From positions 1 to 45,953 of IMG/VR virus record IMGVR_UViG_3300030117_007041: a stretch of DNA of 45,953 bases, one strand, 5' to 3'. Below are positions 30,661 to 43,634 of this stretch, piece after piece. The stretch is from a virus (taxonomy: Duplodnaviria > Caudoviricetes). Positions within the stretch are counted from its first letter, which is position 1. Each line of letters begins with the position of its first letter. The translations under genes were made by a program, and so were the position numbers. A model generated the notes under the pieces. The model did not search any database. It was not told the origin of the DNA and worked only from the letters and a program-made list of their open reading frames with translations.

Positions 30661-31008
30661 ATGGGTATAATTGACCAAATAACAAAGTGCATTATCGACA
30701 CGAATGGAGCCACTATTCAGGGATGGGAACTGTTCCAAGGGAACAGAGGGTTTGTTGTAGGATGTGGTAATATCGAGACAATTACTGTCAATGGCAGGCA
30801 AGAAATATGGCATATAGTGGAAAAACACTATATGGAGAACGTAGGTTTTTGGATGGACGAAGGGAAACTGTATATTGACAGAATACAGATTGTAGATGAT
30901 GTAAAAAGAGCCATTAGCCTTGCTAATGACAACAATGAACTTGCTATATGGGATATAGCAAACCAACAAGAGATACGAACCAATAATAATTCTAGCATTG
31001 AACTATAA
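30661..31008 (+). CDS. Early hypothetical protein (GxWxD...YxD...AIWD family)
   Basis: GGAG RBS before ATG 30661 within track ORF 30586..31008; 115 aa. Confidence 0.7.
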   Translation: MGIIDQITKCIIDTNGATIQGWELFQGNRGFVVGCGNIETITVNGRQEIWHIVEKHYMENVGFWMDEGKLYIDRIQIVDDVKRAISLANDNNELAIWDIANQQEIRTNNNSSIEL

Positions 31009-31029
31009 GTGAAAATGCTAGAATTATTA
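30984..31029 (+). promoter_or_regulatory. GTGAA-loop hairpin, copy 1
   Basis: 16-bp perfect stem TAATAATTCTAGCATT; loop GAACTATAAGTGAA. Confidence 0.75.
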
Positions 31030-31047
31030 AAAGCAAGAGAGGAGTAA

Positions 31048-31680
31048 ATGAACGAGATTCAAAAATTGAAATCAGCTAAACTACCATTCATCCTATTGGA
31101 TGAGAAATTACCATGCCATATTCAGTTGGCATTTAATCTATGCGAGGGCAAAGATGTGATATTAACTACTTTTGCCGAGGATAAAAGAACGAGAGATAGG
31201 CTAAAAAAGGACGTTATTTACGTTGCTGATAGTGAGAGGTATCATATCAAACAAGGAACGGCTCTTTATAACCTAGCAAATATTTTGCTAGAAAACCACC
31301 TAGATAGCCATAATTATGAAGGGAATTATGTTAGTGATATGGACACAATAATCAATATCCAAAAATGTGATATTTGGGATATAGATGCCGACGAGTTCTA
31401 TCTTAAAAACTCTGTAACTTACATGACAAGCCATTGGACGATAGTAAATGAACAAGGGCAAAGAGTTGCGCTTCACAATAAAGATTTGCCGTATGCGGAA
31501 TCGGATAAATTCTTTGGATATGAATTAACTTGGTCAAGACATAACATAACCGACGAAGATGGAAAATCGGATTATTTTTCGCATAAATATGATTTTAATG
31601 ACCTTGTTGACTCTCCTATAGAGAGTCAATGGGGAAAGGGTTCTGATGTCTTTATCGTCGGAAAAGGAAAAGACTATTAA
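31048..31680 (+). CDS. Hypothetical early protein
   Basis: 210 aa; GAGGAG RBS. Confidence 0.75.
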   Translation: MNEIQKLKSAKLPFILLDEKLPCHIQLAFNLCEGKDVILTTFAEDKRTRDRLKKDVIYVADSERYHIKQGTALYNLANILLENHLDSHNYEGNYVSDMDTIINIQKCDIWDIDADEFYLKNSVTYMTSHWTIVNEQGQRVALHNKDLPYAESDKFFGYELTWSRHNITDEDGKSDYFSHKYDFNDLVDSPIESQWGKGSDVFIVGKGKDY

Positions 31681-31952
31681 TGCTAAAACCTAACGAATTA
31701 AAGAAGGGAATTGTTAATTTGCGAGACTTTCTAAAGAAAGTTGCAAAAAAGATGCCCGACAAAGAAAATCGTGGTTTTATAGACCATATGGTCTACTTAA
31801 ACCAAGTTTTAGATAGCTTGGATAAGGTTCTAGACTATACAGATAACCCAAGATTGGATTATCTGATGAGATTAGAACAGAAATACAATAAAATAAATCA
31901 ACTTTTAAAGAAAAAATTGGGGGCGAAGAATGCTAACGACACTAAGCAGTAA
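31680..31952 (+). CDS. Hypothetical protein
   Basis: 90 aa; TAATG coupling. Confidence 0.65.
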   Translation: MLKPNELKKGIVNLRDFLKKVAKKMPDKENRGFIDHMVYLNQVLDSLDKVLDYTDNPRLDYLMRLEQKYNKINQLLKKKLGAKNANDTKQ

Positions 31953-32169
31953 GGAAATAGCCGAACTAGAAAGGAAGATAAATCTTCCTGTGACTAGGTC
32001 GGGAAAGCGAAAAAAGGTTGTTCCAACACGATTTACCGACAGAGAAATACACCATATAGTATTCGTTCGCTTGGCAAAGCTACGCGAAGAGAATAGAAAA
32101 CGCTTTAAAAACAATGCCGTACAAAAACATTGGACAAAAATGTCCAAAAAACAAAGGAGAAAACAATGA
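31930..32169 (+). CDS. Basic hypothetical protein
   Basis: 79 aa, K/R-rich; overlaps both neighbours. Confidence 0.55.
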   Translation: MLTTLSSKEIAELERKINLPVTRSGKRKKVVPTRFTDREIHHIVFVRLAKLREENRKRFKNNAVQKHWTKMSKKQRRKQ

Positions 32170-32285
32170 TACGATTTATTGAACGCGTAATAGATATATT
32201 ATCCTCGGATGAGTTTGGGTTTTTTATCATAGCGCTTGTAGTATTAGGGTTAATAGCGCAAATAATAAGAGCCGTCATTTCTTAA
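32166..32285 (+). CDS. 39-aa membrane peptide
   Basis: Not in the ORF track; AAGGAG RBS; MIRFIERVIDILSSDEFGFFIIALVVLGLIAQIIRAVIS. Confidence 0.65.
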   Translation: MIRFIERVIDILSSDEFGFFIIALVVLGLIAQIIRAVIS

Positions 32286-32300
32286 AAAGGAGAAATCAAT

Positions 32301-32465
32301 ATGCAGAATTATTACGAACACTTAGGATATTTCTTTTGCGAAATATCATTTAGAATAAGTCGGGAAATCCCAAGCGCTGAAAGTGGCATACTTAATTTTA
32401 TAGCCGATAAGCTATATCACATAGGAACCTACTACTATAACAAGGGAGCATAATATTATTTCTAG
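32301..32465 (+). CDS. 54-aa hypothetical protein
   Basis: Not in the ORF track; AAGGAG RBS; MQNYYEHLGYFFCEISF...NKGAYNYF. Confidence 0.6.
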
Positions 32466-32498
32466 CATTTGAGCATTAGTGAAAATGCTAGAAATAAT
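32455..32498 (+). promoter_or_regulatory. GTGAA-loop hairpin, copy 2
   Basis: 15-bp stem ATTATTTCTAGCATT; loop TGAGCATTAGTGAA. Confidence 0.75.
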
Positions 32499-32542
32499 AA
32501 AACAATCATCAACCAACCGCCGAAATCGGCAAAAGGAAAACC

Positions 32543-33763
32543 ATGTATAACAGGAACGAACTTGAATCAATGGCTCATGGCAGAGTCAAAAAGTTGGCTA
32601 TTGCTAAAGCAAGGCAAAATGGTCATAAAAGGAGTTGGGTACAGACCACTCCAAAAAGTCAATTAATCGACTACATATTGGGGGGAGAATTGCCAAAAGA
32701 AGACACACAAATACCCACACCTCAACCTACTCCTCTCCCACATACACCCCGCCCTGCTAGCACAGAGCAAACTACCGTCGGTGGTTTAGAGGAGATAATC
32801 GTAAATGGAGTGCTTACCAAGGTTCAGCCTTTTATAGAGGAAGGCATTGGTAACGCGGTCAAAGAGACCGAGGACACTCTTATATCTACATTCCACGAAG
32901 AGACAAATAAGCTAGCTGAAAAGGTAGATAAGAAAATCGAGGGTTTACAACGTCCTATAAAAGTATACATCAACGACGTAGAGACTAAAGAGGTGTCAGG
33001 TCTTAAACATGAAAAATTCGCTGAGGTTTTGGAGTGTTTAAAGCTTTTTGGTCGCGTTTGGACCTTCGGTCCAAGTGGCACAGGAAAATCATTTCTGATT
33101 GAGCAGTGTGCTAAGGCTTTAGGGTTCGATAAAGAAGAAGGCACATATGAGTACCTAAAAGGCTCAGCGGGAGTGACGGAATCACATATGACAGGAAGAA
33201 TGACGTTTGATGGCACATTCATAGACGGCTCCGTAGCAAGAGCGTTCAGAAATGGAACTTTCTTATGTCTTGACGAATTTGACGGATTCGATGCTAATGC
33301 GGGATTAGTGTTCAATAGCGTACTAGATAACCAAGGTGTTCTATCCACGCCGAACGATAAAGATAATCCACACGTTCTTAAAAAGGACGGCTTTAATGTA
33401 GCGGTTGCTAGCAATACTCTTTGTGACGGACAAGACTTTGAATATGTCGGCAGAGGTCAAATTGATGGTGCTACGCTAGACAGATTGCAAGCCGTTAAGG
33501 TTTATATCGACTATGATAAAAACATCGAAAGAGCGCTCTCGGGGGATTTCATAGACATGGCTGAATGCTTGTGGGAATTAAGAAATCGCATACAAAAGAA
33601 TCACTTGAAGAGGATTATCAGCACTAGGCTTTTTGTCGACGGTCAAACATGGAGACTTGCGGGTAAATCAAATAAGGTGTTACTCGACAAAATAACCTGC
33701 GGTTGGACAAAGGAAGAACTTGATAAAATCAACTACACCGAACTCAAAAGGGAGTATAAATAA
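32543..33763 (+). CDS. MoxR/CobS-like AAA+ ATPase
   Basis: Walker A GPSGTGKS, Walker B LCLDEFD, sensor ASNT, YVGRGQIDGATLDR, ISTR. Confidence 0.88.
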   Translation: MYNRNELESMAHGRVKKLAIAKARQNGHKRSWVQTTPKSQLIDYILGGELPKEDTQIPTPQPTPLPHTPRPASTEQTTVGGLEEIIVNGVLTKVQPFIEEGIGNAVKETEDTLISTFHEETNKLAEKVDKKIEGLQRPIKVYINDVETKEVSGLKHEKFAEVLECLKLFGRVWTFGPSGTGKSFLIEQCAKALGFDKEEGTYEYLKGSAGVTESHMTGRMTFDGTFIDGSVARAFRNGTFLCLDEFDGFDANAGLVFNSVLDNQGVLSTPNDKDNPHVLKKDGFNVAVASNTLCDGQDFEYVGRGQIDGATLDRLQAVKVYIDYDKNIERALSGDFIDMAECLWELRNRIQKNHLKRIISTRLFVDGQTWRLAGKSNKVLLDKITCGWTKEELDKINYTELKREYK

Positions 33764-34665
33764 TGGACGAACTTTACAAGAACATACTAAACCCAAAAAT
33801 CGTCGACGATGAATTTGAGGGTAGGCATGCCATTATTCACATGCCAAACATGAGAACCATGCTAGAAGGCATATATGATAACGAGATATTTTGGCATGAT
33901 GCAGGCGAAAATGGTTCTAGTCGCGAAGAGTGGACTTATGGAAAAAGCGTTGTTGGTCGAGAAAACCTGCGTAGGGCGCTCGTACAAGGCAGAACGTCGG
34001 AAAAAATGATAAAACTCTACAGAAAGTTGCGAAATGAGATGGATATGGATGCTAGAATATCTAAGTTTGTAGGCACAGGGTTGTCCTGTAAGCGTAAACG
34101 CGTAATTAGGGATGACGGAGATGACCTAAGCATGTCTAGGCTCATGGGCGGTAGCGACGAGTATTGGTCAGCTACTGAGCGTAGGTCTCAGAGAGCGAAT
34201 GTGAGAATAGGCATGAACATGGGGATTGCATACACTCATAAAGAAAAGGATTTTGCTAGGCTAGGAGCCACGCTAGCACTGATTAGTGACGTCCTAACTA
34301 AAATGGGATATGCGGTCGAGGTGGTAGCTTACAATTTTGTGAAATACAGAGGAGAAAATGATTGGAAATACTTTGGAATGTCGATACCAATCAAAATGCC
34401 TAACGAACCATTAGACATACATAGGCTGATGAGCGCAGGCTTGCAAGGTTTGTTTAGGGATTTCTGCTTTGGATTGATGGATATAGAATACAAATTCTAT
34501 AGCGGGATGGGGCATCAATGCGAAACAACAGATGCATACAAAAAAGAACTTAATCTTCTCCATGTAGTAGAGCAAAGGTTCTGCCGAACAACTGACGAGG
34601 CTATCGACGGACTATCGAAAACTCTTCAAAAGCTAGCAGATAAACCAAATTGGTTTAGGGGGTAA
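33763..34665 (+). CDS. Putative vWA-like partner of the AAA ATPase
   Basis: 300 aa; coupled to the ATPase; DGDDLSMSRLMGG...GA...ISDVLTKMGYAVEV...IKMPNEPLD...LFR pattern; canonical MIDAS DxSxS absent. Confidence 0.6.
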   Translation: MDELYKNILNPKIVDDEFEGRHAIIHMPNMRTMLEGIYDNEIFWHDAGENGSSREEWTYGKSVVGRENLRRALVQGRTSEKMIKLYRKLRNEMDMDARISKFVGTGLSCKRKRVIRDDGDDLSMSRLMGGSDEYWSATERRSQRANVRIGMNMGIAYTHKEKDFARLGATLALISDVLTKMGYAVEVVAYNFVKYRGENDWKYFGMSIPIKMPNEPLDIHRLMSAGLQGLFRDFCFGLMDIEYKFYSGMGHQCETTDAYKKELNLLHVVEQRFCRTTDEAIDGLSKTLQKLADKPNWFRG

Positions 34666-34666
34666 T

Positions 34667-34948
34667 ATGGACGAATATACGCTAAGGGAAATAAAAAGCG
34701 TTGGTATTGACCATACCAAACTAATTGACGATTATTGCGAAGAGTGGTATGGTCACCGAAATTGGGAATATAGCTTAATATCAGATAATAACGAAGACAT
34801 TAAATACATAGCTAAAGTGCCACTAAGCGAATTTCATATATTCCACAATAACATATATGATTCAATAGGAATTTTTAAAGAACCGCACAACGAAGATGGA
34901 GATTGCCTGTGTAAAGAACAAATTTGCGCAGGCGAAAGCTATAAATAA
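34667..34948 (+). CDS. Hypothetical protein
   Basis: 93 aa ORF in the operon. Confidence 0.6.
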   Translation: MDEYTLREIKSVGIDHTKLIDDYCEEWYGHRNWEYSLISDNNEDIKYIAKVPLSEFHIFHNNIYDSIGIFKEPHNEDGDCLCKEQICAGESYK

Positions 34949-34989
34949 ATAATTATTACTGAAACGTTAGTGAAAGTAATAATTATTTA
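34946..34989 (+). promoter_or_regulatory. GTGAA-loop hairpin, copy 3
   Basis: 15-bp stem TAAATAATTATTACT; loop GAAACGTTAGTGAA. Confidence 0.75.
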
Positions 34990-35005
34990 AAAAGGAGAAG
35001 AGCCA

Positions 35006-35293
35006 ATGACCGTAATTAGAACTGAAAATTTTGTAGCGTGTGATTTTTGCAACGAAGGCGCAGACTCATATGGTGGTGTGCTAGTAGGTAGCGGTACTGC
35101 CGTATGCGGAAATTGTAGCGAAAAAAACGAGTTTACCCACAAAGGCATACCTAACCAAGCCTATGAACATAAAGACGAAATTTCGGAGTATTTTGATAAA
35201 GATAAAACATTCCAAGAAAATGTAGAACAGTATAGGCTTGAGAAATACGGAACCAAATATGCTACAACCATCATAACCGATTGGGATATATAA
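35006..35293 (+). CDS. Small zinc-finger protein
   Basis: CDFC...CGNC (ClpX-like C4 pattern); AAGGAG RBS. Confidence 0.7.
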   Translation: MTVIRTENFVACDFCNEGADSYGGVLVGSGTAVCGNCSEKNEFTHKGIPNQAYEHKDEISEYFDKDKTFQENVEQYRLEKYGTKYATTIITDWDI

Positions 35294-35297
35294 ACTA

Positions 35298-35344
35298 TTA
35301 TTTAATTATTGTTTGTTTTTTTTGTGAAAACAATAATTAAATAA
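35298..35344 (+). promoter_or_regulatory. GTGAA-loop hairpin, copy 4 (degenerate loop)
   Basis: 17-bp stem TTATTTAATTATTGTTT; loop GTTTTTTTTGTGA. Confidence 0.6.
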
Positions 35345-35364
35345 ATAACTAACAAGGAGCAACC

Positions 35365-35826
35365 ATGAGCCAAAGTAAAGAAATGGATAGGTTTATGAAG
35401 AGATTAAAGTCCGCAACTAAGGGCAACGAAGAAATCTCTGAACTAATTCTTGACACGATGACGGTAGTAACAAACGTAATTTTACATGCCCTAAGTAAAG
35501 GGATAGGTAAAAAACCGCTAGATGAACTTAGTCGTGAACTAAGAATTGAAATTGCAAGTAAAATATGTGCTGATTTAGATGAGACCATTATGCCAATCTA
35601 TAAAGCTTTAGATGGTATTTCTGACGCGTCATTTGATGTCACCTCTTTGGCAAGGCACATAAACGCTATTTCAGACGATATGGAAATGTTTGTTAAGTCA
35701 TCGACCAATGATAAAGGTGTTCAAAGCATAGAGACGTCAGTAGGAAGGCGCATAGACGATATTGAAGAGGACTTTAAAGATGCAATGAAGAGCATGATGC
35801 TCGAAAATCAAGTAGGCAAAGCCTAA
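35365..35826 (+). CDS. Hypothetical helical protein
   Basis: 153 aa; AAGGAG RBS. Confidence 0.7.
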   Translation: MSQSKEMDRFMKRLKSATKGNEEISELILDTMTVVTNVILHALSKGIGKKPLDELSRELRIEIASKICADLDETIMPIYKALDGISDASFDVTSLARHINAISDDMEMFVKSSTNDKGVQSIETSVGRRIDDIEEDFKDAMKSMMLENQVGKA

Positions 35827-35840
35827 AAGGAGTTAACATA

Positions 35841-36518
35841 GTGGGATATACACATTATTGGAAAAATAAACCATCGTTTAGCAAGCACAGTGTTGCTTGG
35901 AATAACTTTATTAAAGATGCTGAGGACATCTTGCTCGTAACTGAGTCTCTTCAGTTGGTTCGTGCGGAGTTTGACCAACTTGACATGATTCCCGAGGTAG
36001 GAGAAAACCGAATAAAATTTAACGGAATAGGCGAAGATGGGCATGAGACGTTCATAATAAACAGAGAAGACGATGAAGATTTTGAATTTTGCAAAACCGC
36101 AAGAAAACCATATGACAAGATTGTAACTGCCATACTTGCGCTAGCAAAGCATCACTTAGTCATACCCAATATTTCATCAGATGGCACCTCAAACGATTGG
36201 GATGAAGGGGTTGACTATGCTAGTAAAATTCTTAATAAAAATATCAAACATCCATTTAACCCTCAATATAAACACAAAAACACAACAGGAGAAAGCATGA
36301 CACTACATGAAATACCTTTAAGCGAAACAACAAAAATCCTTGTAACCAAGGACACAATAAACGAAAAGACCTTTGGTCAGATTCGTGTATGGACAAAGCC
36401 GAAGGACAAAGAGGATTACATACCCACAAAAAAAGGCATAGCGTTTGACCTGTCTAAAACAGGCGCTATTGTTGCAGGTCTTCTGACTCTCGAAGACCAA
36501 GAAGGTGTAAAAGCCTAA
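35841..36518 (+). CDS. MGYTHYW-family protein fused in frame to a PC4-like domain
   Basis: N-terminal GYTHYW...FNG...HETF...FCKTARKPYD...SSDG...W; C-terminal IRVW...YIPTKKGIAF. Confidence 0.7.
   Translation: MGYTHYWKNKPSFSKHSVAWNNFIKDAEDILLVTESLQLVRAEFDQLDMIPEVGENRIKFNGIGEDGHETFIINREDDEDFEFCKTARKPYDKIVTAILALAKHHLVIPNISSDGTSNDWDEGVDYASKILNKNIKHPFNPQYKHKNTTGESMTLHEIPLSETTKILVTKDTINEKTFGQIRVWTKPKDKEDYIPTKKGIAFDLSKTGAIVAGLLTLEDQEGVKA
36297..36518 (+). CDS. PC4-like ssDNA-binding protein from an internal start
   Basis: AGGAG-6 nt-ATG at 36297, in frame; 73 aa with the PC4/YdbC-like motif. Confidence 0.65.
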   Translation: MTLHEIPLSETTKILVTKDTINEKTFGQIRVWTKPKDKEDYIPTKKGIAFDLSKTGAIVAGLLTLEDQEGVKA

Positions 36519-36534
36519 GCTAGCACACCACGAA

Positions 36535-36568
36535 GGGGGCGGTTTTCATGGTTCCGCCCCCGAGTTTT
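36535..36568 (+). terminator. Probable intrinsic terminator
   Basis: GGGGGCGG/CCGCCCCC stem, then GAGTTTT. Confidence 0.6.
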
Positions 36569-36592
36569 AAATAAATAATAAAGGAGCAAATT

Positions 36593-36856
36593 TTGACAAA
36601 ATTAAACATAAGAACCAAAGACGAAATAATTATAAAGCTTGTTAGTAAGCTAGAAGAAAAACACAGGAGCGTTAGCACTGAGTCTCGGGCGGTAAATCAT
36701 GGTTGGGTGTTGGCGCTAGAATGGGTGTGTGGCATGATTGATACCATTGCAGGCGGTAAGGAAAAATCTGAAAAAGGGTGGAGCGTAGTTGAGGAAATAG
36801 TAGATAATGTACAAAGAAGAGTGGAAGAAAAAGTTGATGGAGATGAAAAAGAATGA
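36593..36856 (+). CDS. Hypothetical protein
   Basis: 87 aa; AAGGAG plus TTG start; GWVLALEWV motif. Confidence 0.65.
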   Translation: MTKLNIRTKDEIIIKLVSKLEEKHRSVSTESRAVNHGWVLALEWVCGMIDTIAGGKEKSEKGWSVVEEIVDNVQRRVEEKVDGDEKE

Positions 36857-37119
36857 GCGAATTAATAACGTATAACGGAAACTTTAATAATAAAAACTCA
36901 ATCGCGCTTATATGGCATATTGATGATGTTAAGTTTACACTAAAAGATATGCAAGAGCGTGAATGGTTTAAAAAGAAATACGGAAAATCTATTGAATTAA
37001 CAGACGAAGATTGCATGGATATACTTGTCGAGATTAAAGACAACCACGATGCTAGCTTGGGAGTTTGCTGGGAAACAATAGAGCATTACATTGATAGATT
37101 CCTAGAAGAGAATAAATAA
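36853..37119 (+). CDS. Hypothetical protein
   Basis: 88 aa; W.IDDV...LTDEDC..IL...HDASLGVCWETI, a pattern common in phage early genes. Confidence 0.7.
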   Translation: MSELITYNGNFNNKNSIALIWHIDDVKFTLKDMQEREWFKKKYGKSIELTDEDCMDILVEIKDNHDASLGVCWETIEHYIDRFLEENK

Positions 37120-37131: not shown

Positions 37132-37335
37132 GTGGAAAAAATAAAAGAACATATTAACAAGATGTTACACTCAATACAAAACGACCTAGATAATGACTAC
37201 GCGGATGGTAAATCTTTTGATACAGATTCTTGGGAAACAAATAACGACGGAGAAATAATATCATATGACGTAGGCTATATGAACGCTATGAAATACATTC
37301 TTAAAAATATAGATTCTTGGAAAACAAAAAAGTGA
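37132..37335 (+). CDS. Hypothetical protein
   Basis: 67 aa; AAGGAG plus GTG start. Confidence 0.6.
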   Translation: MEKIKEHINKMLHSIQNDLDNDYADGKSFDTDSWETNNDGEIISYDVGYMNAMKYILKNIDSWKTKK

Positions 37336-37344
37336 GGATAAAAA

Positions 37345-37524
37345 ATGAAAAAGTATAAATACATGTTACGAGTAAAAGCTTATTATCTATACGAAATAGA
37401 AGCAGATAGCGAAAGAGAAGCTATGGATATATTTAAAGAAGATAATAGCATAGATGTATCAAAAATCATAATGGAAGACTATGATAAAGCTCATTGTCTC
37501 ACGAGGGAGAAAAACAAAAAGTGA
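37345..37524 (+). CDS. 59-aa hypothetical protein
   Basis: Not in the ORF track; GAGGA RBS; MKKYKYMLRVKAYYLYEIEADSEREAM... Confidence 0.6.
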   Translation: MKKYKYMLRVKAYYLYEIEADSEREAMDIFKEDNSIDVSKIIMEDYDKAHCLTREKNKK

Positions 37525-37700
37525 AATGTAATATATGTAATAAGTATAAAGCGAAAATAAAAGACTATCGATTTATTGATAGCGTCGGTCTTCAAGGTAG
37601 CGTGCTAGCTTGTAAATTTTGCTTTAATTTAAACGACGTCGCTATTGTGGATATAAAAAAGAATAGCTTAGACCCAAAAGTATTTTTTAAGGAGAAATAA
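37521..37700 (+). CDS. Small zinc-finger protein
   Basis: GTGA-coupled start within track ORF 37494..37700; CNIC...CKFC. Confidence 0.6.
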   Translation: MKCNICNKYKAKIKDYRFIDSVGLQGSVLACKFCFNLNDVAIVDIKKNSLDPKVFFKEK

Positions 37701-37702
37701 AA

Positions 37703-38224
37703 ATGAAAAATGGATTTATAGAAATTGCCAATAAAACATTGCTTGGCAGGAAGATTTCTAGCATAAAATATATGTCAACTGAAGAGGCAGTGGATTTTGG
37801 GTGGTACAAGCGCCCAATGGTAATTGTTCTTGATGATGGTACGGAAATATACCCACAGATGGATGAAGAAGGTAATGAGGGAGGCGCGCTAGCGCTTTAT
37901 AATGCCGACAAAGAAGGTCAATCTATGTTTAGCGTTATGCCAACCCTCACCCTTGGAGAAAGCGAGGTTGATTATAAAATGGAAATATTCACAGACAAAG
38001 AACCTACGCTAGAAACTCTTCAAAGCAGTGTCGGCGGTCATATACAGGTGGTAACCTCTAAAGATGGAAAGGCGGATATTGTCATGGATGAAGATGGTAA
38101 GAACAAAGGCAAGGGTATCAATTATCTTGCTACTGAAATGTGGAAAGGTGTTGACAGGAATAAGTGGGATGATGTAATTGTGGGCGATGTTGCCGTATGT
38201 ATGAAAAAGGCTAGACTTACTTAA
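37703..38224 (+). CDS. Two-domain protein with C-terminal DUF3846-like domain
   Basis: PTLETLQSSVGGHIQVV...MDEDGK...IN..AT...IVGDV at the C-terminus. Confidence 0.7.
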   Translation: MKNGFIEIANKTLLGRKISSIKYMSTEEAVDFGWYKRPMVIVLDDGTEIYPQMDEEGNEGGALALYNADKEGQSMFSVMPTLTLGESEVDYKMEIFTDKEPTLETLQSSVGGHIQVVTSKDGKADIVMDEDGKNKGKGINYLATEMWKGVDRNKWDDVIVGDVAVCMKKARLT

Positions 38225-38226
38225 TA

Positions 38227-38261
38227 TAAAAAAGAAAGGGGAGTTAGCACGCTCCCCTTTC
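38227..38261. terminator. Terminator between the converging blocks
   Basis: GAAAGGGGAG/CTCCCCTTTC stem; the upstream A run gives a U tract on the minus strand. Confidence 0.75.
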
Positions 38262-38345
38262 ACAACCAACAACTACCACTTAGATATAGAGAGAAGAACC
38301 ATAAAAAGAGTGGGTTGTTACTTAATAAGTTAAGTATTTACACGC

Positions 38346-38705
38346 TTAACTCGCTAATACATTTTTAATATCGTTTAACGTAGGATATATTTTATTATCC
38401 GCATCATCTTTTGAAAGTATATATTTTTTTGAACTTTCTTTTTCTTTATTCCATTCTTCTTTTCTATCCATAACACCTAAAGGAGAAAATTTATAACTAA
38501 TATTCGCAGGCACATCATTCCAATGGCGTAGTTCTAGTGCAAGTTTTTCTATCTCTTTAAACGCCTTTCCCTTCCCTATAGTTCCTTTTCTAGCATGTTT
38601 TGATATTGATATTATCCCATCTGTGATTTGATACACTTTACTCGCGCTATTTTTCAAATGCGCGCCAAGATGGTCTCTTTGTTCTTTGTAATCTTCTTTA
38701 AGCAT
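38346..38705 (-). CDS. Hypothetical protein
   Basis: Track ORF 38346..38711; likely ATG at 38705. Confidence 0.65.
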   Translation of the reverse strand: MLKEDYKEQRDHLGAHLKNSASKVYQITDGIISISKHARKGTIGKGKAFKEIEKLALELRHWNDVPANISYKFSPLGVMDRKEEWNKEKESSKKYILSKDDADNKIYPTLNDIKNVLAS

Positions 38706-38835
38706 CGTCAATTTTCCTTTCTATTCTATGCAGTCTCCATAGTTGACTGAGTTGCAAAGCTAGCATCATCAACATCGTAAACTCCCAGTAAGGGAAATAC
38801 TCCACGCTAAATAAAACTTCCCAGTAGTGTCTCAT
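38698..38835 (-). CDS. 45-aa hydrophobic peptide
   Basis: Not in the ORF track; AAGGAG RBS; MRHYWEVLFSVEYFPYWEFTMLMMLALQLSQLWRLHRIERKIDDA. Confidence 0.6.
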   Translation of the reverse strand: MRHYWEVLFSVEYFPYWEFTMLMMLALQLSQLWRLHRIERKIDDA

Positions 38836-38857
38836 TTGGTTTCTCCTTTTATTTTAC

Positions 38858-39100
38858 CTATGAATATTCCGCTTCTGCTAATAGTATTTGACTAATATTT
38901 CCAACAACTCTCAATGACCTTTGTCTACCTAATTCATCAGCCTTTACTCTTAAGCACCAAGCGGAAAAATACTGCGGTTTTCTACCAAAATTCCCAGTTA
39001 TTTCTAAACTACCATTAATTTCATACCATTCATTGTCTGCTAGATATATATAGTTTATATCCTTAACTGGAACTCCAAATAATTCTTCTATTTGATTCAT
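38858..39100 (-). CDS. Hypothetical protein
   Basis: 80 aa; ATGA coupling. Confidence 0.6.
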   Translation of the reverse strand: MNQIEELFGVPVKDINYIYLADNEWYEINGSLEITGNFGRKPQYFSAWCLRVKADELGRQRSLRVVGNISQILLAEAEYS

Positions 39101-39225
39101 CCTATATCCTTTGAGTGCTTAGAGGCGGGTGCTAGAAAACGAAGTAGACCTTTTCTTATTTTTGTAAAAAATAAGTCCTCTTTGCCTTTAAAGTTATTTG
39201 GTATATTTTTCTTTTTTCTAGGCAT
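39097..39225 (-). CDS. 42-aa basic peptide
   Basis: Not in the ORF track; GGAGG RBS; MPRKKKNIPNNFKGKEDLFFTKIRKGLLRFLAPASKHSKDIG. Confidence 0.6.
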   Translation of the reverse strand: MPRKKKNIPNNFKGKEDLFFTKIRKGLLRFLAPASKHSKDIG

Positions 39226-39370
39226 CGTCGCCTCCTATTATCTGTTTAATGTATTTTTTATAAAGCTCAAGCAACATAAGAATCATAAATAACCCTAAGC
39301 ACCAAACCACAATCGTGGAACCTAATAAAAATAGGTTAATTATCCAATCTGCTAAGTCCATTACTATCAT
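39218..39370 (-). CDS. Small membrane protein
   Basis: Likely start MIVMDLADW after GGGAG; one long hydrophobic segment. Confidence 0.6.
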   Translation of the reverse strand: MIVMDLADWIINLFLLGSTIVVWCLGLFMILMLLELYKKYIKQIIGGDDA

Positions 39371-39395
39371 AATTACTCCCTTATTTTTAATTAAA

Positions 39396-39471
39396 GGCGC
39401 ACATGGGAGATTGCTGATGCGGAGCAACTAGGTTTTTTGTAGTTGTGAGTAACCTAGGAGACATGCGCGCC
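39396..39471 (-). ncRNA. Possible three-way-junction RNA element
   Basis: 10-bp closing stem enclosing two hairpins (CTAGGTT/AACCTAG and TTGCT/AGCAA). Confidence 0.35.
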
Positions 39472-39666
39472 TTGATTATTTTTGCAAATTGAACATACTT
39501 GTCTTTCTTTCTTATATGTTGGAAAGTCTTTATAGTGTATAACATTTCCAATAAAGTCCATTTCCCAACATCTTTTACACTTTTTGCAAAATTTTATATT
39601 CTTGTCTGTTTTTTTACCGTCAAAATAATTATGCCTTTTATTTTTTCTTTTAGGGGCGCTTGTCAT
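39454..39666 (-). CDS. Small zinc-finger protein
   Basis: CKKC..CWE...YKDFPTY...CSIC. Confidence 0.65.
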   Translation of the reverse strand: MTSAPKRKNKRHNYFDGKKTDKNIKFCKKCKRCWEMDFIGNVIHYKDFPTYKKERQVCSICKNNQGAHVS

Positions 39667-39769
39667 TCTTTCTTCTTAAAACCTTCTTTTCAAAAAGACA
39701 AACAAAAAAAGAAGTTAAACAACGAAAATAATATCGTTGGCGCCAACCTACGATTAACATTTATCATTA

Positions 39770-40786
39770 TTAATGCGCCCCTAAAGATGTTACAAGATTT
39801 TTAAATGTTTTATCGAATTTTTCCTTTTCTAGCTTTGATGATTTTTCATCTGAGCTGGCGTCATTCACAGCATCGTCGACAGCAACTGAGCTAGCATCTT
39901 TACTCGCTGCACCTGAAACTTTAGTTTCAGGTTGCAGTTTGCTGGTTGTATTTTTATTAATAGCAATTTGTTGCATCACCATATTTTTGGACTCATAATA
40001 TCCATCGCCACACTCACATAGTTTATCAGCAGTTTTTAACTCTACTTCGGTTGTTTTTTCTTTTCCGCACTCTATACACATCCAATCATATGATTTTTTT
40101 ATGGATAGATTCTGTATAACCTTTGAACTGCTTATAAGCTCATCATCATATCTTTCTTGATTAAGCCATGTGCTAGCCATTGGTATGAATTCTGACTCAG
40201 TTCCTGCTTGTTTCCATTGCTTAATGTAAGCCTTTAAGCCATTAATTATATTGCTTTTATCAACCCCGCCATTTCTAAGCTTAACATACTTGTCTTTAGC
40301 TCTTTTTTTATTATCTCTTCTAGGATATATTGCCCAAAAATCACTTTCAAATTCATCTTCATAAACCTTTTCTTTAACTGCTTTACTTTTATTTACTTTA
40401 TTTTCAACTTCTTTATTGGATGGCTTTGCCATAGCTTTGCCATTCCACCTAGCATTAGCGCCCTTTTTCCCATTATTACTCATTCTCTCCCTGTAACTAA
40501 TCAAGTTACTTCTTTCAGCCTCTAGCCTTTTATTATAAAGCCTACCGCCGTCCTCATAAAAGCAATTCTTAACTACATTCCAATCGCTATTGAAATTCGG
40601 GTGTTTTCCGCATAATATATTTAAATGCCTTGTGTCCGTCGGTAAACTGCCCTCAATCCATTCGTGTGCTAGCAAAGTTATATATATTCCACGCTGCGCC
40701 ATCGTCATTATCTGCACATCTATATCAGATAAAAAATCTCCTGCATAAAATTGGAATGCGGGAGCTTTGTTCATTTTGTTTTGCAT
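39770..40786 (-). CDS. Replication initiator (YdaU/DUF1376-like, lambda O analogue) with C-terminal Zn ribbon
   Basis: PAFQFYAGDFL...RGIYITLL...LYNKRL...GKKGANARW; FWAIYPRR..K..A...FIPMASTWLNQERYDDE; CIEC/CEC. Confidence 0.85.
   Translation of the reverse strand: MQNKMNKAPAFQFYAGDFLSDIDVQIMTMAQRGIYITLLAHEWIEGSLPTDTRHLNILCGKHPNFNSDWNVVKNCFYEDGGRLYNKRLEAERSNLISYRERMSNNGKKGANARWNGKAMAKPSNKEVENKVNKSKAVKEKVYEDEFESDFWAIYPRRDNKKRAKDKYVKLRNGGVDKSNIINGLKAYIKQWKQAGTESEFIPMASTWLNQERYDDELISSSKVIQNLSIKKSYDWMCIECGKEKTTEVELKTADKLCECGDGYYESKNMVMQQIAINKNTTSKLQPETKVSGAASKDASSVAVDDAVNDASSDEKSSKLEKEKFDKTFKNLVTSLGAH
40420..40443. repeat. Two overlapping ATRGC-N3-GCYAT iterons within the initiator gene
   Basis: ATGGCTTTGCCAT and ATAGCTTTGCCAT in the inter-domain linker. 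Confidence 0.7.
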
Positions 40787-40978
40787 CTATTCTCCTTTGT
40801 TTACTATGTCTTCTCTTTTTACAGAAAAATGCTCTGTTCTTGGAAATTTTTTTGTAATAAATATATTATCTCCGCTAATAGAGGATATTTCTCCACTCAC
40901 ATATGTAGCATCACCATCTCTGTTAATGGTTTTTGCGGTAACTATATCGCCTAATTTAAAGTCTTTCTTTAATTGCAT
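40787..40978 (-). CDS. Small SH3/KOW-like protein
   Basis: 63 aa; FKLGDIV...GEISSI pattern. Confidence 0.5.
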   Translation of the reverse strand: MQLKKDFKLGDIVTAKTINRDGDATYVSGEISSISGDNIFITKKFPRTEHFSVKREDIVNKGE

Positions 40979-41390
40979 CTTCTATTTCATTATATCTTTC
41001 ATTGTAAATTCTAATTTCGTCTTTATTTCTATCATCTTCGCTATCTTTGTACTCACTAGAGTTTTCCAATAATGCGTCTCTATCTGATATTAAATCTACA
41101 AACTCCTTATAGGGTAGTATTGCATATATTTCACCCCTATCTTCTTTAACTACTTGCAAATCAACAACGCTTGGGTCGGGTTTTATCCAACTTGCTATTT
41201 TTTTTCTTACCTTGCACTGTATTCGCCATTTTTTTAATCTTGAATCAATAATAACATCCACTTCTTTATTCTCTCCTAGCGCCCTACCATCACTTCCGTA
41301 CGCTCGCTCTGAATACAGACCGTATTCTTTTGTTAGGTTCACAACCTCACGTTCAAACCTATTTCCTTTTTGCTTGCTCCTACTTGGCAT
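40956..41390 (-). CDS. Holliday junction resolvase-like PD-(D/E)XK nuclease (Hjc type)
   Basis: SKQKGNRFEREVV...EVDVII...IQCKVRK. Confidence 0.75.
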   Translation of the reverse strand: MPSRSKQKGNRFEREVVNLTKEYGLYSERAYGSDGRALGENKEVDVIIDSRLKKWRIQCKVRKKIASWIKPDPSVVDLQVVKEDRGEIYAILPYKEFVDLISDRDALLENSSEYKDSEDDRNKDEIRIYNERYNEIEDAIKERL

Positions 41391-41406
41391 ATTTACTCGC
41401 AAGAGA

Positions 41407-41450
41407 GGGGGGTAGGCGAAACAGGATGATATAATAAAGACCTACCCCCC
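41407..41450 (-). terminator. GC-rich hairpin (possible terminator or processing site)
   Basis: GGGGGGTAGG/CCTACCCCCC 10-bp stem, 24-nt loop; weak U tract. Confidence 0.4.
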
Positions 41451-41465
41451 ATTGGAGACATCAAA

Positions 41466-41744
41466 TTAGTTAAGAGAAAGCTCATAATTACCGCCAATAT
41501 CAACATTGTCCAAGAGTGTGTACAATGCATAATTAGAGGTTTTTCCTGTTGTGCTACTTTTATGGGTTTTCATTGTGGTTGTTATATGATAACCTTCTTT
41601 TTTTAGCCTATGTATCACATCAGAAAGCCTAGTTATCCTATATTTTGTTATAGCATTCCATGAGCTAATCTTTTTATTTTCTTTTAAGTGCCTAAGCACA
41701 ACGTCTTTTTGGGTTATTTTTTTAGAATGGCAAATCATCGTCAT
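41466..41744 (-). CDS. Winged-helix HTH protein (HTH_39-like)
   Basis: TQKDVVLRHLK...ISSWNA...ITRLSDVIHRLKKEGYHI; start uncertain. Confidence 0.75.
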   Translation of the reverse strand: MTMICHSKKITQKDVVLRHLKENKKISSWNAITKYRITRLSDVIHRLKKEGYHITTTMKTHKSSTTGKTSNYALYTLLDNVDIGGNYELSLN

Positions 41745-42558
41745 CGTCTCCTGCTATTTTCTTGCCAAATTCCTTCATTAACTCCTCACCTTCCTGTACT
41801 TGGTCTTCTTGCTTGGGTGTAAGCTCATCATTGCTCAGTAAACTCTGTTGATTTGTTTCTGAGCTAGCACCACCAGAATTATCAGTTGTCTGGGTAGGTT
41901 GTTCCGATTCCGACTTTACCGCTTTTTCTGCCATACGAGAAACAAGTTCTGCATTAGCCATAGTTCTCCAATTAGGATTGTCGCTCTTTTCAATAATCCA
42001 GCCTATGTAATCTTCGGGTACATCTCTCCAAGGAGTTCCTTTATATTTGCCAAAAGGTATTCCTGTGTTTCTTGATTCTTCGTTCCACTCATCTGAAGCT
42101 TGTTTTATTTCTTCGTTTGGCTTTTTACTGACCGAGGGGGTAGGGATAATTGTTTTATGCTCTCTATTGTCCATGCTATCAGCATCTTGTGTGTCATCAA
42201 TAGCGAACAATCCATTTAATGCATATTTTCTAGCATAAGAAGATGTAGCACCTGTTATTTGGCTATCGTCCATCCCTTTCTTTTGAACAGACTCCCTTGC
42301 CCATCCTGTGGTAACTATTGATTCGTTACCGTCGCTAAACGTAGCGGTTGCCTTAATATAGTTAAATTCATTTATACATATTATTTCATCGCTAACCGTT
42401 ACAAAGCACCCATTTTCCTTTAGTAAAGGTTTTAACCCTTCAAATATATCGGAAAGATTTCTGTAATTATAGCTACCAAATTCGTTTCGATGCCCCTTAC
42501 CGACCTTTAGTCGCGTCTGAACATCATTCAGTTTTTCGATTATGTTTTTTTGTTTCAC
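41722..42558 (-). CDS. erf: ERF-family single-strand annealing protein
   Basis: YNYRNLSDI...KPLL...GWARE...KGMDDSQITGATSSYARKYALNGLFAIDD; extra PFGKYKG...VPEDYIGW motif; DDDDLPF tail. Confidence 0.9.
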   Translation of the reverse strand: MKQKNIIEKLNDVQTRLKVGKGHRNEFGSYNYRNLSDIFEGLKPLLKENGCFVTVSDEIICINEFNYIKATATFSDGNESIVTTGWARESVQKKGMDDSQITGATSSYARKYALNGLFAIDDTQDADSMDNREHKTIIPTPSVSKKPNEEIKQASDEWNEESRNTGIPFGKYKGTPWRDVPEDYIGWIIEKSDNPNWRTMANAELVSRMAEKAVKSESEQPTQTTDNSGGASSETNQQSLLSNDELTPKQEDQVQEGEELMKEFGKKIAGDDDDDLPF

Positions 42559-43055
42559 TTTATCTCCTTGTTGTTGGTTGTTTTGTAGGAAAAGGTCGTA
42601 TCCGTTGTTTCTGTGTACCCCATAGGCACATCTCCGCTAGTGCTTATGTATTTTAGTATCTCTTTTTTATCTGGCTTTTCCGTAACTCTTGTTGGAATGT
42701 TGTTGTCATAGCAAAATTTTATAAGTTCTTTTTCATCTCCAAATTCCCTACTTGTTCTAGTGGTCATCTTCAATGTTCCATTGGGCATCTTTAAGGTTTT
42801 TTTGCCTGTTTTTTGTAACTCACTCTGCATAAAGCTTTCTAATAAGTTCCTTCTGTATGTTATCTGTTTATTAACGGACTCTATCCTTCGGTCATAGAAC
42901 TCTTTTGATTCTGCTTGTTTATATCTTATATCATGAATCTCATTCTCTAGTTGGCATATTTTCCATAATATTTGGTCTACATGAACGTCTAAGATGTCAG
43001 AATCTTCCATTTCCCCATGAAGCTCTTCTAATTTTATTTCTCTTTCATCACTCAT
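42555..43055 (-). CDS. Mu Gam / Gp157-like host-nuclease inhibitor
   Basis: Coiled coil, then KKTLKMPNGTL...KPDKKEI...G.VP.G; next to ERF. Confidence 0.7.
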   Translation of the reverse strand: MSDEREIKLEELHGEMEDSDILDVHVDQILWKICQLENEIHDIRYKQAESKEFYDRRIESVNKQITYRRNLLESFMQSELQKTGKKTLKMPNGTLKMTTRTSREFGDEKELIKFCYDNNIPTRVTEKPDKKEILKYISTSGDVPMGYTETTDTTFSYKTTNNKEIK

Positions 43056-43209
43056 CTTCCATTTTCTCCTTCATCAGTTTAAGCTCTTCTTCTAGGTATG
43101 TTAGCCTAGTCGCAATCTCAAGCATTATTTCTGTAAGTGATTTTGTAAAGTCAGCCAATGATGTGGTTATATTAGCTATTTCATCAAAAAGTTTACCTAT
43201 TGACCTCAT
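43048..43209 (-). CDS. 53-aa coiled-coil protein
   Basis: Not in the ORF track; GAGGAG RBS; MRSIGKLFDEIANITTSLADF...KEKMEDE. Confidence 0.6.
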   Translation of the reverse strand: MRSIGKLFDEIANITTSLADFTKSLTEIMLEIATRLTYLEEELKLMKEKMEDE

Positions 43210-43387
43210 TTGATTCTTCTCCTCTATTTATTAGGTGTTGATTGTTTTGTTGTGGTGCGATAACATTAAACCCTAAGTTTTCTGCCATTCTATATATTCT
43301 TGCATAAAACTCCCTAACGTCTTTTTCGGTTGTTTTATCCGTCCTCTCTATTCTCATCTTTAATAACTTATCATCAAACGTTTGCAT
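43193..43387 (-). CDS. Hypothetical protein
   Basis: 64 aa, overlapping neighbours. Confidence 0.6.
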   Translation of the reverse strand: MQTFDDKLLKMRIERTDKTTEKDVREFYARIYRMAENLGFNVIAPQQNNQHLINRGEESNEVNR

Positions 43388-43580
43388 TATGAACGCCCCT
43401 TACAACTACATGATTAAAGTATCCACATTTACTAGAATTTGCTATGCATTCTTTTCCCGCAAAATCACCATCAACCTTAATGGTTAGTTTTCCGTTTATG
43501 CGAGCAAACATTACACCTAGGCATTTGCCCCCATTATAGTTAGCACATTCTCTTCTTGCTAGTGTTTCTGCTTTTTTCAT
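43374..43580 (-). CDS. Cys-rich small protein (VLP-domain-like)
   Basis: ARRECANY..GKC...C....KCGYF...V pattern. Confidence 0.6.
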   Translation of the reverse strand: MKKAETLARRECANYNGGKCLGVMFARINGKLTIKVDGDFAGKECIANSSKCGYFNHVVVRGVHNANV

Positions 43581-43588
43581 TGCATCCT

Positions 43589-43634
43589 TTTAATTATTAG
43601 TTCTTTCACTAAAGTTACAGAACTAATAATTAAA
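43589..43634 (-). promoter_or_regulatory. GTGAA-loop hairpin, copy 5 (minus strand)
   Basis: 16-bp stem TTTAATTATTAGTTCT; minus-strand loop GTAACTTTAGTGAA. Confidence 0.75.

What the first reader, a model, noticed from the sequence alone, without database searches (positions are those of the whole stretch)
30984..43634. Family of five long hairpins with variable stems and a conserved oriented loop, each just upstream of a gene
Seen: 30984-31029, 32455-32498, 34946-34989, 35298-35344 (+) and 43589-43634 (-). Each has a perfect 15-17 bp AT-rich stem whose inner sequence differs (TCTAGCATT, ATTACT, ATTGTTT, AGTTCT) yet always pairs. Loops are GAACTATAAGTGAA, TGAGCATTAGTGAA, GAAACGTTAGTGAA, GTAACTTTAGTGAA (all 14 nt) and degenerate GTTTTTTTTGTGA(A). 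The loop flips with the coding strand. Every copy is at or over a stop codon and shortly before the next RBS; I saw copies only in the two non-structural blocks. They lack GC stems and U tails, so they are not intrinsic terminators. Inference: a structure-plus-loop recognition element defining a phage regulon: RNA processing or stabilisation sites (like T7 RNase III sites), boxB-like antitermination signals, or extruded hairpin promoters (like N4), perhaps read by one of the phage's ssDNA-binding or HTH proteins. This is my best candidate for an undescribed system here.
Basis: partly seen in the sequence, partly recalled or inferred. Interest (0 to 1): 0.85.

Follow-up and report, generated by a model that had tools for sequence, protein, structure and literature searches.

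The report
Capped hairpins punctuate marine phage messages
Several unrelated marine phages, including the cultured phage HMO-2011, place a long A/U-rich hairpin with the same G·A-capped tip between their early genes; it is likely an RNA signal that a host enzyme (probably RNase III) cuts to split the early message, though no cut or RNA has been observed.

Summary
Confirmed: the five hairpins are the window's only perfect inverted repeats of 12 bp or more. The "loop" is structured: stem, G·A/A·G mismatches, a covarying 2-bp stem and a 3-5-nt loop, about 21 pairs in all. The conserved letters are a 3'-strand UGA(A), and wobble pairs favour the coding strand. By position the hairpin precedes the AAA gene in 24/24, gene F9 in 10/10 and gene F17 in 28/28 distinct relatives, and none was found on the structural-gene side. 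The same cap occurs in a distant clade, in an unrelated HTVC023P-like lineage (1 of 113 ORFs shared), and twice in the cultured SAR116 phage HMO-2011. Head-gene relatives include a Marinisomatota prophage. No shared phage gene was found, so a host reader is likelier than a phage regulon. Best reading (0.5): host RNase III processing sites laid out as in T7 early mRNA, but conserving the tip instead of the stem. Studied RNase III enzymes do not need such a tip, so the cap remains unexplained. No Rfam match, no paper found, and the scan had not noted this element on other DNA. No RNA evidence.

The parts
30984..31029 (+). Hairpin 1: 16-bp stem plus capped tip; the upstream ORF reads through the 5' arm and stops in the tip; ends 18 nt before the ATG of gene F13. 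Variable among relatives.
32454..32499 (+). Hairpin 2: 17-bp stem, 2x2 G·A/A·G cap, G·U + C-G inner stem, AUUA loop; ends 43 nt before the AAA+ ATPase start. Present in 24/24 distinct relatives.
32519..32530 (+). Small G/C hairpin after an A/C-rich tract, between hairpin 2 and the ribosome site; present in most clade-1 AAA leaders. A similar small hairpin follows both HMO-2011 copies.
34946..34989 (+). Hairpin 3: 15-bp stem starting on the upstream stop codon, 3x3 purine cap, GUUA loop; ends 16 nt before gene F25. Absent at this position in 98%-identical strains.
35298..35344 (+). Hairpin 4: 17-bp stem with a U-rich degenerate tip that keeps the 3' UGAA; ends 20 nt before gene F9. Present in 10/10 distinct relatives tested.
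43589..43634 (-). Hairpin 5: 16-bp stem overlapping the stop of the HTH gene; ends 8 nt before the ATG of gene F17 and abuts the Shine-Dalgarno. Present in 28/28 distinct relatives.
29898..29926 (+). Putative host sigma-70-type promoter (TTG..17..TAAGTT) heading the + strand early block; a second candidate lies at 29957-29984. Consensus match only.
43872..43900 (-). Putative host promoter of the same form heading the - strand recombination/replication block. Consensus match only.
38234..38261 (.). G/C hairpin with U tail where the two blocks converge; likely intrinsic terminator.
32543..34665 (+). MoxR/CobS-like AAA+ ATPase and DUF7192 partner gene; mark the early block that carries the hairpins in clades 1 and 2.
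35365..35826 (+). Gene F9: conserved, mainly helical protein (model pLDDT 87) that follows a hairpin; no informative fold match.
43374..43580 (-). Gene F17: small Cys-rich protein, first gene after hairpin 5, upstream of the Gam-like and ERF genes.

Best explanation
The five elements are conserved ~45-nt A/U-rich hairpins with a G·A-capped tip that lie between genes of two early gene blocks, and they are likely RNA sites that the host's RNase III cuts to split and tune the long early messages, as in phage T7. Shown: the fold (long stem, G·A/A·G cap, 2-bp inner stem, short loop; about 21 pairs), its conservation on the coding strand, its place between a stop codon and the next ribosome site, and its spread over unrelated phages. 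Inferred: host RNA polymerase transcribes each block from a sigma-70-type promoter; the hairpin folds in the mRNA; RNase III binds the two-turn helix and cuts about 13-16 pairs below the loop; the downstream gene is left with a short A/U-rich single-stranded leader before its Shine-Dalgarno. The conserved 3'-strand G, mostly in a non-Watson-Crick pair, may be a distal-box-like contact that sets the cut; that step is speculative.
For: Helix length about 21 pairs in clade 1; 15-19 bp below the cap in clade 2 and 14-26 bp in lineage 3; the ideal RNase III substrate is 22 bp (PMC3867540, passages). Compensatory change at 16 of 17 stem pairs. The inner stem, not selected for pairing, is 80.5% paired against 19.5-44% when slid, with C-G/U-A/U·G and A-U/G·U exchanges. 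The coding strand folds 1.4-4.2 kcal/mol more stably as RNA. The layout matches T7's early region, where hairpins precede 5 of 6 early genes folded and five RNase III signals are known (PMC3867540). The element spans phages with no shared gene found, which points to a widespread host factor. Full-length RNase III was found in 4 of 5 Marinisomatota genomes tested. All 18 clade-2 copies carry one bulge or mismatch 6-12 bp below the cap, near the predicted cut. A register with A-U/U-A at both proximal-box positions 2 and 4 exists in 54 of 59 copies. U-G wobbles are enriched in the distal box of B. subtilis and E. coli sites (bioRxiv 2023.03.12.532304, passages). A modelled cut opens the ribosome site of hairpin 5 (unpaired 0.30 to 0.81) and hairpin 3 (0.60 to 0.77).
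Against: No RNA end, transcript or cleavage was seen. E. coli and Aquifex RNase III do not need a particular loop, and the Aquifex enzyme ignores the distal box (PMC1540722, PMC3074117, passages), so RNase III does not explain why the tip is what is conserved; T7's hairpins conserve the stem and vary the tip. The proximal-box test is weak: six registers pass in 50 or more of 59 copies because the stems are mostly A/U, and the register that would put the conserved G in the distal box passes in only 37 of 59. A modelled cut barely changes ribosome-site access for hairpins 1, 2 and 4. No similar hairpin was found in 151 genomes of the presumed host phylum or in 800 kb of their DNA. Tandem G·A pairs and GNA/GTTA/TTTA loops are also stable in single-stranded DNA (recalled).
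Confidence: 0.5

Rival explanations
1. The hairpin is an RNA site that a conserved host protein binds without cutting (or RNase III in a non-catalytic mode), setting translation of the next gene or shielding message segments from decay.
For: The conserved letters sit in the tip, as expected for a binding site, and the 3'-strand UGA(A) persists whether it faces A, U or C. The stem ends 8-24 nt before the start codon in 42 of 59 copies. Non-catalytic RNase III binding is documented (PMC3867540, passages).
Against: A binding site would not obviously need a helix held near two turns. No candidate protein was identified. A K-turn-type 3-nt bulge is absent from the consensus.
Confidence: 0.2
2. The element acts as single-stranded or cruciform DNA on the coding strand, during DNA entry, replication or recombination.
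For: Clade-1 arms are near-perfect inverted repeats with few G·U pairs (6 of 35 non-Watson-Crick cells in the long stem). If the origin lies in the initiator gene (repeats at 40429-40443), the capped strand is the leading-strand template for all five copies, so orientation alone cannot separate RNA from DNA. The phage encodes PC4-like, DUF736, ERF and RusA proteins.
Against: Placement is between a stop codon and a ribosome site in 55 of 59 copies. The strand preference is larger as RNA than as DNA (1.4-4.2 against 0.3-0.8 kcal/mol). Lineages with other gene sets carry it. Palindromic DNA can be a liability for phages (PMC11707656, passages).
Confidence: 0.12
3. A phage-encoded protein reads the hairpin as a regulon signal (N/boxB-like antitermination or translational control).
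For: The temperate head-gene relative in G187 lacks both the lytic early block and the hairpins. 18 of 20 hairpin-forming pattern matches in the metagenome scan belong to this phage family. U-rich tip variants resemble the boxA of Marinisomatota rRNA leaders.
Against: 1 of 113 lineage-3 ORFs matched any clade-1/2 ORF, and HMO-2011 carries the element. F9 shows no informative fold. Most tips lack the U-rich core of boxA. Lineage-3 contigs are fragments of 12 kb or less, so a shared reader elsewhere is not excluded.
Confidence: 0.1
4. The hairpins are recombination sites that shuffle gene cassettes, like integron attC sites or PeSLs.
For: Single variable genes often sit between two hairpins, and hairpins 1 and 3 come and go among close strains.
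Against: Breakpoints between close strains fall at start codons, inside genes, or 11-15 nt upstream of hairpin 2, not inside the hairpins. Many variable genes have no hairpin. No tyrosine recombinase in the genome. Homologous exchange between copies may still occur as a by-product.
Confidence: 0.04
5. The hairpins are promoters or terminators.
For: Hairpin 2 contains a 9/12 sigma-70-like match on each strand.
Against: The promoter scan found 70 sites against 56.9 +/- 8.2 by chance, with no match common to the five copies. None of the five is among the 23 terminator-like sites. The 3' arm is A-rich on both strands.
Confidence: 0.04

Closest known systems
T7 early-mRNA RNase III sites (five signals in the ~7,000-nt early transcript; PMC3867540 passages; T7 leaders folded)
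   Same: About five long hairpins between early genes transcribed from host-type promoters, each ending shortly before a ribosome site; helix of roughly two turns, often with one internal defect.
   Different: T7's hairpins share their stem sequence and vary at the tip. These vary the stem, are 75-95% A/U, and conserve a G·A cap with a 3' UGA(A). Clade-1 stems are mostly perfect. Cleavage is proven for T7 and untested here.
B. subtilis phage SP82 early-mRNA RNase III sites (seen only as a citation in PMC4838370; details recalled)
   Same: Host RNase III targets in the early message of a lytic phage.
   Different: I did not see their sequences; no comparison was run.
PeSL cassettes of T4-type phages RB49/phi1 (PMC2839356, passages)
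   Same: Repeated intergenic stem-loop before a Shine-Dalgarno in hypervariable early regions.
   Different: PeSLs contain a sigma-70 promoter and polyG/polyC terminator stems and are crossover sites. These have no common promoter match, are A/U-rich, and breakpoints fall outside them.
Hammerhead ribozyme domain II (core recalled)
   Same: Tandem G·A pairs next to a short stem, followed by GAAA.
   Different: No CUGANGA core within 60 nt in 58 of 59 copies; no stem I; no Rfam match.
TIGR-Tas stem-loop arrays (PMC12045711, passages)
   Same: Phage RNAs with variable palindromic stems and short conserved motifs.
   Different: TIGR units are tandem arrays with two spacers and a Nop-domain partner. 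These are dispersed, have no spacers, and the genome has no Nop match.
N4 virion-RNA-polymerase hairpin promoters (PMC4496689, search listing only; features recalled)
   Same: Hairpins with a conserved tip before early genes.
   Different: N4 hairpins are short, on the template strand, and need a virion polymerase. Here stems are 15-17 bp, the favoured strand is the coding strand, and no polymerase was detected.

Membership tests
Bacterial RNase III processing site (T7 type) | RNA helix of at least 11 bp, ideally about 22 bp | tested here: met
   About 21 opposed positions, 17 of them canonical stem pairs, 94.7% paired; PMC1540722, PMC3867540
Bacterial RNase III processing site (T7 type) | A-U/U-A at proximal-box positions 2 and 4 | tested here: inconclusive
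   Best register 54 of 59; six registers reach 50 or more, so the test does not discriminate. Box spacing partly recalled.
Bacterial RNase III processing site (T7 type) | Distal box U-A/U·G (E. coli rule) | tested here: inconclusive
   U-A or G·A then U-A in the best register; Aquifex ignores the distal box (PMC3074117)
Bacterial RNase III processing site (T7 type) | Intergenic, on the coding strand of a polycistronic early block | tested here: met
   no model match on the structural-gene side in 78 terminase loci
Bacterial RNase III processing site (T7 type) | Host encodes RNase III | tested here: met
   4 of 5 Marinisomatota genomes; one read in full has the nuclease motif and a C-terminal extension. 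The host of the window's phage is inferred, and the SAR116 host was not checked.
Bacterial RNase III processing site (T7 type) | RNase III-dependent cleavage | not testable with these tools
   No RNA run holds the stretch
Hammerhead ribozyme | CUGANGA core with three stems | tested here: not met
   1 of 59 copies has the motif within 60 nt; Rfam negative
TIGR-Tas | Nop-domain protein | tested here: not met
   PF01798 0 of 1 genome; control rings in 4 archaea
TIGR-Tas | Tandem array of dual-spacer units | tested here: not met
   Copies are dispersed, 0.35-8 kb apart, with self-complementary arms
Integron attC / site-specific cassette site | Tyrosine recombinase, and crossovers within the site | tested here: not met
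   PF00589 0 of 1, control 14 of 14; breakpoints outside hairpins. A host integrase was not tested.
PeSL | Built-in sigma-70 promoter and G/C terminator stem | tested here: not met
   model matches are 10-23% GC
N4-type hairpin promoter | Virion RNA polymerase | tested here: inconclusive
   No PHROGs or Pfam match for the 1,816-aa and 1,010-aa virion-region proteins; they were not folded
N4-type hairpin promoter | Hairpin formed on the template strand | tested here: not met
   18 G·U/U·G cells in the inner stem on the coding strand would be A·C on the template strand
Intrinsic terminator | G/C stem followed by a U run | tested here: not met
K-turn / K-loop | 3-nt bulge next to tandem G·A | tested here: not met
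   Cap is a 2x2 or 3x3 loop, at most a 1-nt bulge; definition recalled
nut site (boxA-boxB) | U-rich single-stranded boxA plus a 15-nt boxB read by an N protein | tested here: inconclusive
   A minority of tips resemble Marinisomatota rRNA boxA; no N-like gene shared across lineages

The most novel reading that the evidence does not exclude
A tip-directed RNA processing code shared by unrelated marine phages across host phyla: the G·A-capped tip with its 3' UGAA is the recognition element from which a host nuclease measures its cut down an interchangeable A/U helix, as yeast Rnt1p measures from a tetraloop. Studied bacterial RNase III enzymes do not work this way, so it would be a new specificity mode or an unrecognised host RNA-binding nuclease, testable in the cultured HMO-2011/SAR116 pair.
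Probability: 0.3. Interest if true: 0.8.

Novelty: new variant of a known kind. Interest (0 to 1): 0.62.

Why it matters
It is an undescribed cis element, absent from Rfam, that recurs in at least three unrelated marine phage lineages whose hosts appear to lie in different phyla. It offers a natural mutational series of about 100 variants for how phages of uncultured ocean bacteria process early messages. Two copies sit in a cultured phage (HMO-2011, host Ca. Puniceispirillum marinum IMCC1322), so the function can be tested directly. If the tip directs the cut, it would change what is known of bacterial RNase III specificity; if it is an ordinary RNase III site, it extends the T7 strategy to phages without their own RNA polymerase.

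Tried and rejected
Rfam: no credible match in window 28000-45953 (6 hits, all far below gathering score) or in three relatives. Model R1: 0 of 151 genomes of the presumed host phylum, with only 40 candidates scored per genome; best E=8.6 in 800 kb of host DNA; none in the G187 prophage or the G004 contig. RNA runs: no RNA holder listed; laying three runs gave only short contig pieces, mostly of relatives, which cannot show RNA ends; a narrower second look was not obtained. Phage reader: F9 folded well but gave no Foldseek hit at E<=0.001 and best Z 6.0 to cullin helices; Atlas searches for F9 and F13 were uninformative; the DUF7192 protein has no PDB match. Coordinated change of tip type within a genome: not significant (49 of 63 pairs concordant, 1,342 of 5,000 shuffles as high). 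Invariant U-A/A-U at stem columns 11-12: partly built in by my selection pattern and not kept in clade 2, so dropped as a defining feature. Host pre-16S stalks: boxA's UGA lies 9-13 nt before a conserved UAUG in 16 of 20 operons, a loose parallel that I do not count as evidence. Look-alikes set aside: a single hit in Bacillus-like prophages (L607 group) and a single hit in large A/T-rich phages (L485 group), neither placed before a gene on the capped strand in the one locus of each group that I read. Cultured phages without the element in the parts read: HTVC023P (40 of 61 kb), HTVC027P (26.5 of 57.6 kb), CRP-901 (22 of 53 kb), DSL-LC04 (24 of 61.5 kb), ICBM1 (9 of 40 kb). One search had a slicing error at contig edges; its counts are replaced. 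Paper searches found no description of the element; none named HMO-2011, and no supplements were opened.


Full report
OBSERVATION. They are the only perfect inverted repeats of 12 bp or more in the window; 30 shuffled genomes held 4 such repeats in all. A covariance model finds no sixth copy. Each overlaps or directly follows a stop codon and ends 8-43 nt before the next ATG.

CONTEXT. The window is a 45,953-nt virus record rated complete: a podovirus-like phage with a P22-like portal, SU10-type capsid and terminase, and no detected DNA or RNA polymerase. Four copies lie in the + strand block (30.0-38.2 kb; AAA+ ATPase, DUF7192 partner, PC4-like and many small genes). One lies in the - strand block (HTH, Gam-like, ERF, RusA, initiator). 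Each block starts at a TTG-17-TAAGTT promoter-like site, and the two meet at a terminator-like hairpin at 38234-38261. That the blocks are long early transcripts is inferred.

ANATOMY. I aligned 59 distinct copies: 5 from the window, 51 others from the 72 rows and 3. The 19 rows dropped were 5 from three unrelated contigs, 1 reverse-strand duplicate, 4 near-duplicates of window copies, 1 copy without TGA, 2 clade-2 copies and 6 further variants. The long stem is 94.7% paired, with compensatory change at 16 of 17 pairs, but my selection required core pairing and a TGA, so this figure is inflated. The inner 2-bp stem was not selected for pairing: it is 80.5% paired against 19.5-44% when slid, with C-G 29, U·G 10, U-A 9 at one pair and A-U 38, G·U 8 at the other. 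Between the two stems sit A·G (44 of 59), G·A or A·A (49 of 59) and U-A or G·A (55 of 59). The whole is a helix of about 21 steps with a purine-rich cap and a 3-5-nt loop. The constant letters are the 3'-strand UGA(A), kept even where the 5' side has become U-rich. Wobble pairs and folding energy favour the coding strand.

CONSERVATION WITHOUT SELECTION. Taking the 125 nt before a gene regardless of content, an A/U hairpin is present before the AAA gene in 24 of 24 distinct sequences (23 with TGA), before F9 in 10 of 10 and before F17 in 28 of 28. It is present in 3 of 5 before F13 and 3 of 10 before F25, and in none before F7, the DUF7192 gene, ERF, F14, the initiator, terminase or SSB. 22 of 44 capsid leaders and 3 of 52 RusA leaders have a different hairpin without TGA. 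All model matches in 78 terminase-centred loci fall on the early side. In a loop-blind scan the YGA cap is on 5 of 5 long A/U hairpins in the window's early half, 0 of 4 in its late half, 35 of 50 in ten clade-1 loci, 15 of 21 in six clade-2 loci and 15 of 22 in four lineage-3 loci, against 12 of 59 in host DNA.

RANGE. Clade 2 (AAA about 38-39% identical) keeps the cap on unrelated stems. Of 20 distinct rows, 18 are family copies (2 set aside as look-alikes with a different tip); all 18 begin the tip with G, which the scan did not require, and carry one bulge or mismatch 6-12 bp below the cap, whereas 0 of 11 chance hits in host DNA begin with G. Two pattern scans of viral contigs (191 loci; 21 hairpin-forming matches, 14 without a close family protein) led to lineage 3: fragments of an HTVC023P/CRP-901-like phage (portal 41% identical) with 5-7 capped hairpins in its small-gene block, most before a ribosome site. 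Only 1 of its 113 ORFs matches a clade-1/2 ORF. A cobavirus-like contig has two (L602). The cultured SAR116 phage HMO-2011 has two, at record 3-43 (E=0.0037) and 1199-1248 (E=0.31), with the same tip as a clade-1 copy. Each is followed by a small G/C hairpin, a ribosome site and an unannotated ATG; 9 of its 55 kb were read. Five other cultured relatives lack it in the parts read. In the metagenome scan, 18 of 20 hairpin-forming matches among 118 belong to the window's family, but that pattern was family-specific.

HOST. The only terminase relatives in the GTDB scan were two contigs of a Marinimicrobia MAG. Among 401 genomes of that phylum, 3 match. One is a prophage inside a 2.14-Mb contig with terminase 61%, portal 56% and capsid 45% identity; it has a temperate control region, no AAA block and no hairpins. 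So Marinisomatota is the likely but unproven host of the window's phage; lineage 3's host is unknown; HMO-2011's host is an alphaproteobacterium. Full-length RNase III occurs in 4 of 5 Marinisomatota genomes tested. The element was not found in host chromosomes.

MECHANISM. An element shared by phages with no common gene found, and apparently different host phyla, points to a widespread host factor. A two-turn RNA helix between early genes is the form of T7's RNase III signals (PMC3867540, passages). T7 leaders folded here show such hairpins before 5 of 6 early genes, though the record does not annotate the sites. I therefore favour host RNase III cutting 13-16 pairs below the loop. A modelled cut opens the ribosome site of hairpins 5 and 3 but hardly those of 1, 2 and 4. 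Against this: E. coli RNase III needs no particular tetraloop sequence or position (PMC1540722, passages and figure legends); the Aquifex enzyme ignores loop and distal box (PMC3074117, passages); the proximal-box test is met by several registers and so proves little; and T7 conserves stems, not tips. The cap is therefore unexplained. It may be a distal-box-like contact (U-G wobbles are enriched there in B. subtilis and E. coli; bioRxiv 2023.03.12.532304, passages), a way to extend an RNA helix without lengthening a DNA palindrome (palindromes can trigger defence; PMC11707656, passages), or the site of another protein. DNA-level action is not excluded, since coding strand and leading-strand template coincide if the origin lies in the initiator gene.

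RIVALS TESTED. Phage reader: no RNase III, Nop or integrase match in the genome; F9 folds confidently but matches nothing informative. Cassette recombination: breakpoints lie at start codons, inside genes or just upstream of hairpin 2. Hammerhead, a lead from an earlier scan note: core present near 1 of 59 copies. TIGR (PMC12045711, passages) and PeSL (PMC2839356, passages): defining features not met. Promoter or terminator: not supported.

NOVELTY. No Rfam family. Ten paper searches found no description; the library lacks most subscription journals, and I did not search on HMO-2011. The scan's own index holds no look-alike by sequence or place, only hairpin families of other phages with different loops. 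It works most likely like T7's RNase III sites but is not shown to be one, and it differs in conserving its tip. New variant of a known kind; interest 0.62.

Noticed in passing
window 1-45953: No GATC and no GGCC anywhere in the genome, and no CCGG in the + strand early block. Clade 2 and lineage 3 loci also lack GATC, whereas the G187 prophage and host DNA keep it: probable restriction avoidance, perhaps a shared host.
   Followed up: partly
window 29690-30660: GTAAACACCC occurs four times, with repeated ACGCGT and a duplicated 17-mer at 29764 and 29795, in a G/C-richer stretch at the divergence point between late and early blocks; possibly the genome end or packaging region.
   Followed up: no
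window 29578-29636 and 40429-40443 (-): The same GCAAAGCCAT motif lies in inverted repeats left of the early promoter and as repeats inside the initiator gene; candidate initiator-binding sites.
   Followed up: no
window 24974 and 21986 (-): TGTAACA just upstream of both the portal and capsid genes; 22 of 44 capsid leaders in relatives carry a separate A/U hairpin; candidate late regulatory motif.
   Followed up: no
window 41407-41450 and about 36535-36562: A second class of G/C-rich hairpins with long loops (24 nt at 41407-41450), with counterparts in relatives.
   Followed up: no
L005:2466-2494, L023:9348-9378, L026:9472-9502, L027:9732-9760: Shorter CTAGC-armed hairpins with 7-nt loops stand where other relatives have a capped hairpin; possibly eroded copies.
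   Followed up: no
G187:C1:197800-239000 (L456-L458): Apparently intact temperate prophage in a 2.14-Mb Marinisomatota contig, sharing head genes with this lytic family.
   Followed up: partly
L686:96-255 and from about 1287 (HMO-2011, GU557055.1): Two unannotated ORFs with ribosome sites follow the two capped hairpins in HMO-2011.
   Followed up: partly
L685:830-1535 (ICBM1, MF431617.1): Long intergenic hairpins before the first three early genes, two sharing a GGGTGCA stem and none with the cap: candidate T7-type RNase III sites in a cobavirus.
   Followed up: no
L263-L285 (Marinisomatota rRNA leaders): boxA reads about G-N-N-N-TTTGAAAA, and the pre-16S stalk has a conserved UAUG/CAUA core that fits an RNase III proximal box.
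   Followed up: partly
window 34667-35012: A contig in run X1 joins the DUF7192 gene straight to gene F25, lacking the 93-aa gene and hairpin 3, as relatives L035 and L194 do.
   Followed up: partly
window 6518-11968 (-): 1,816-aa virion-region protein with no PHROGs or Pfam match; probably an ejection protein; not folded.
   Followed up: no
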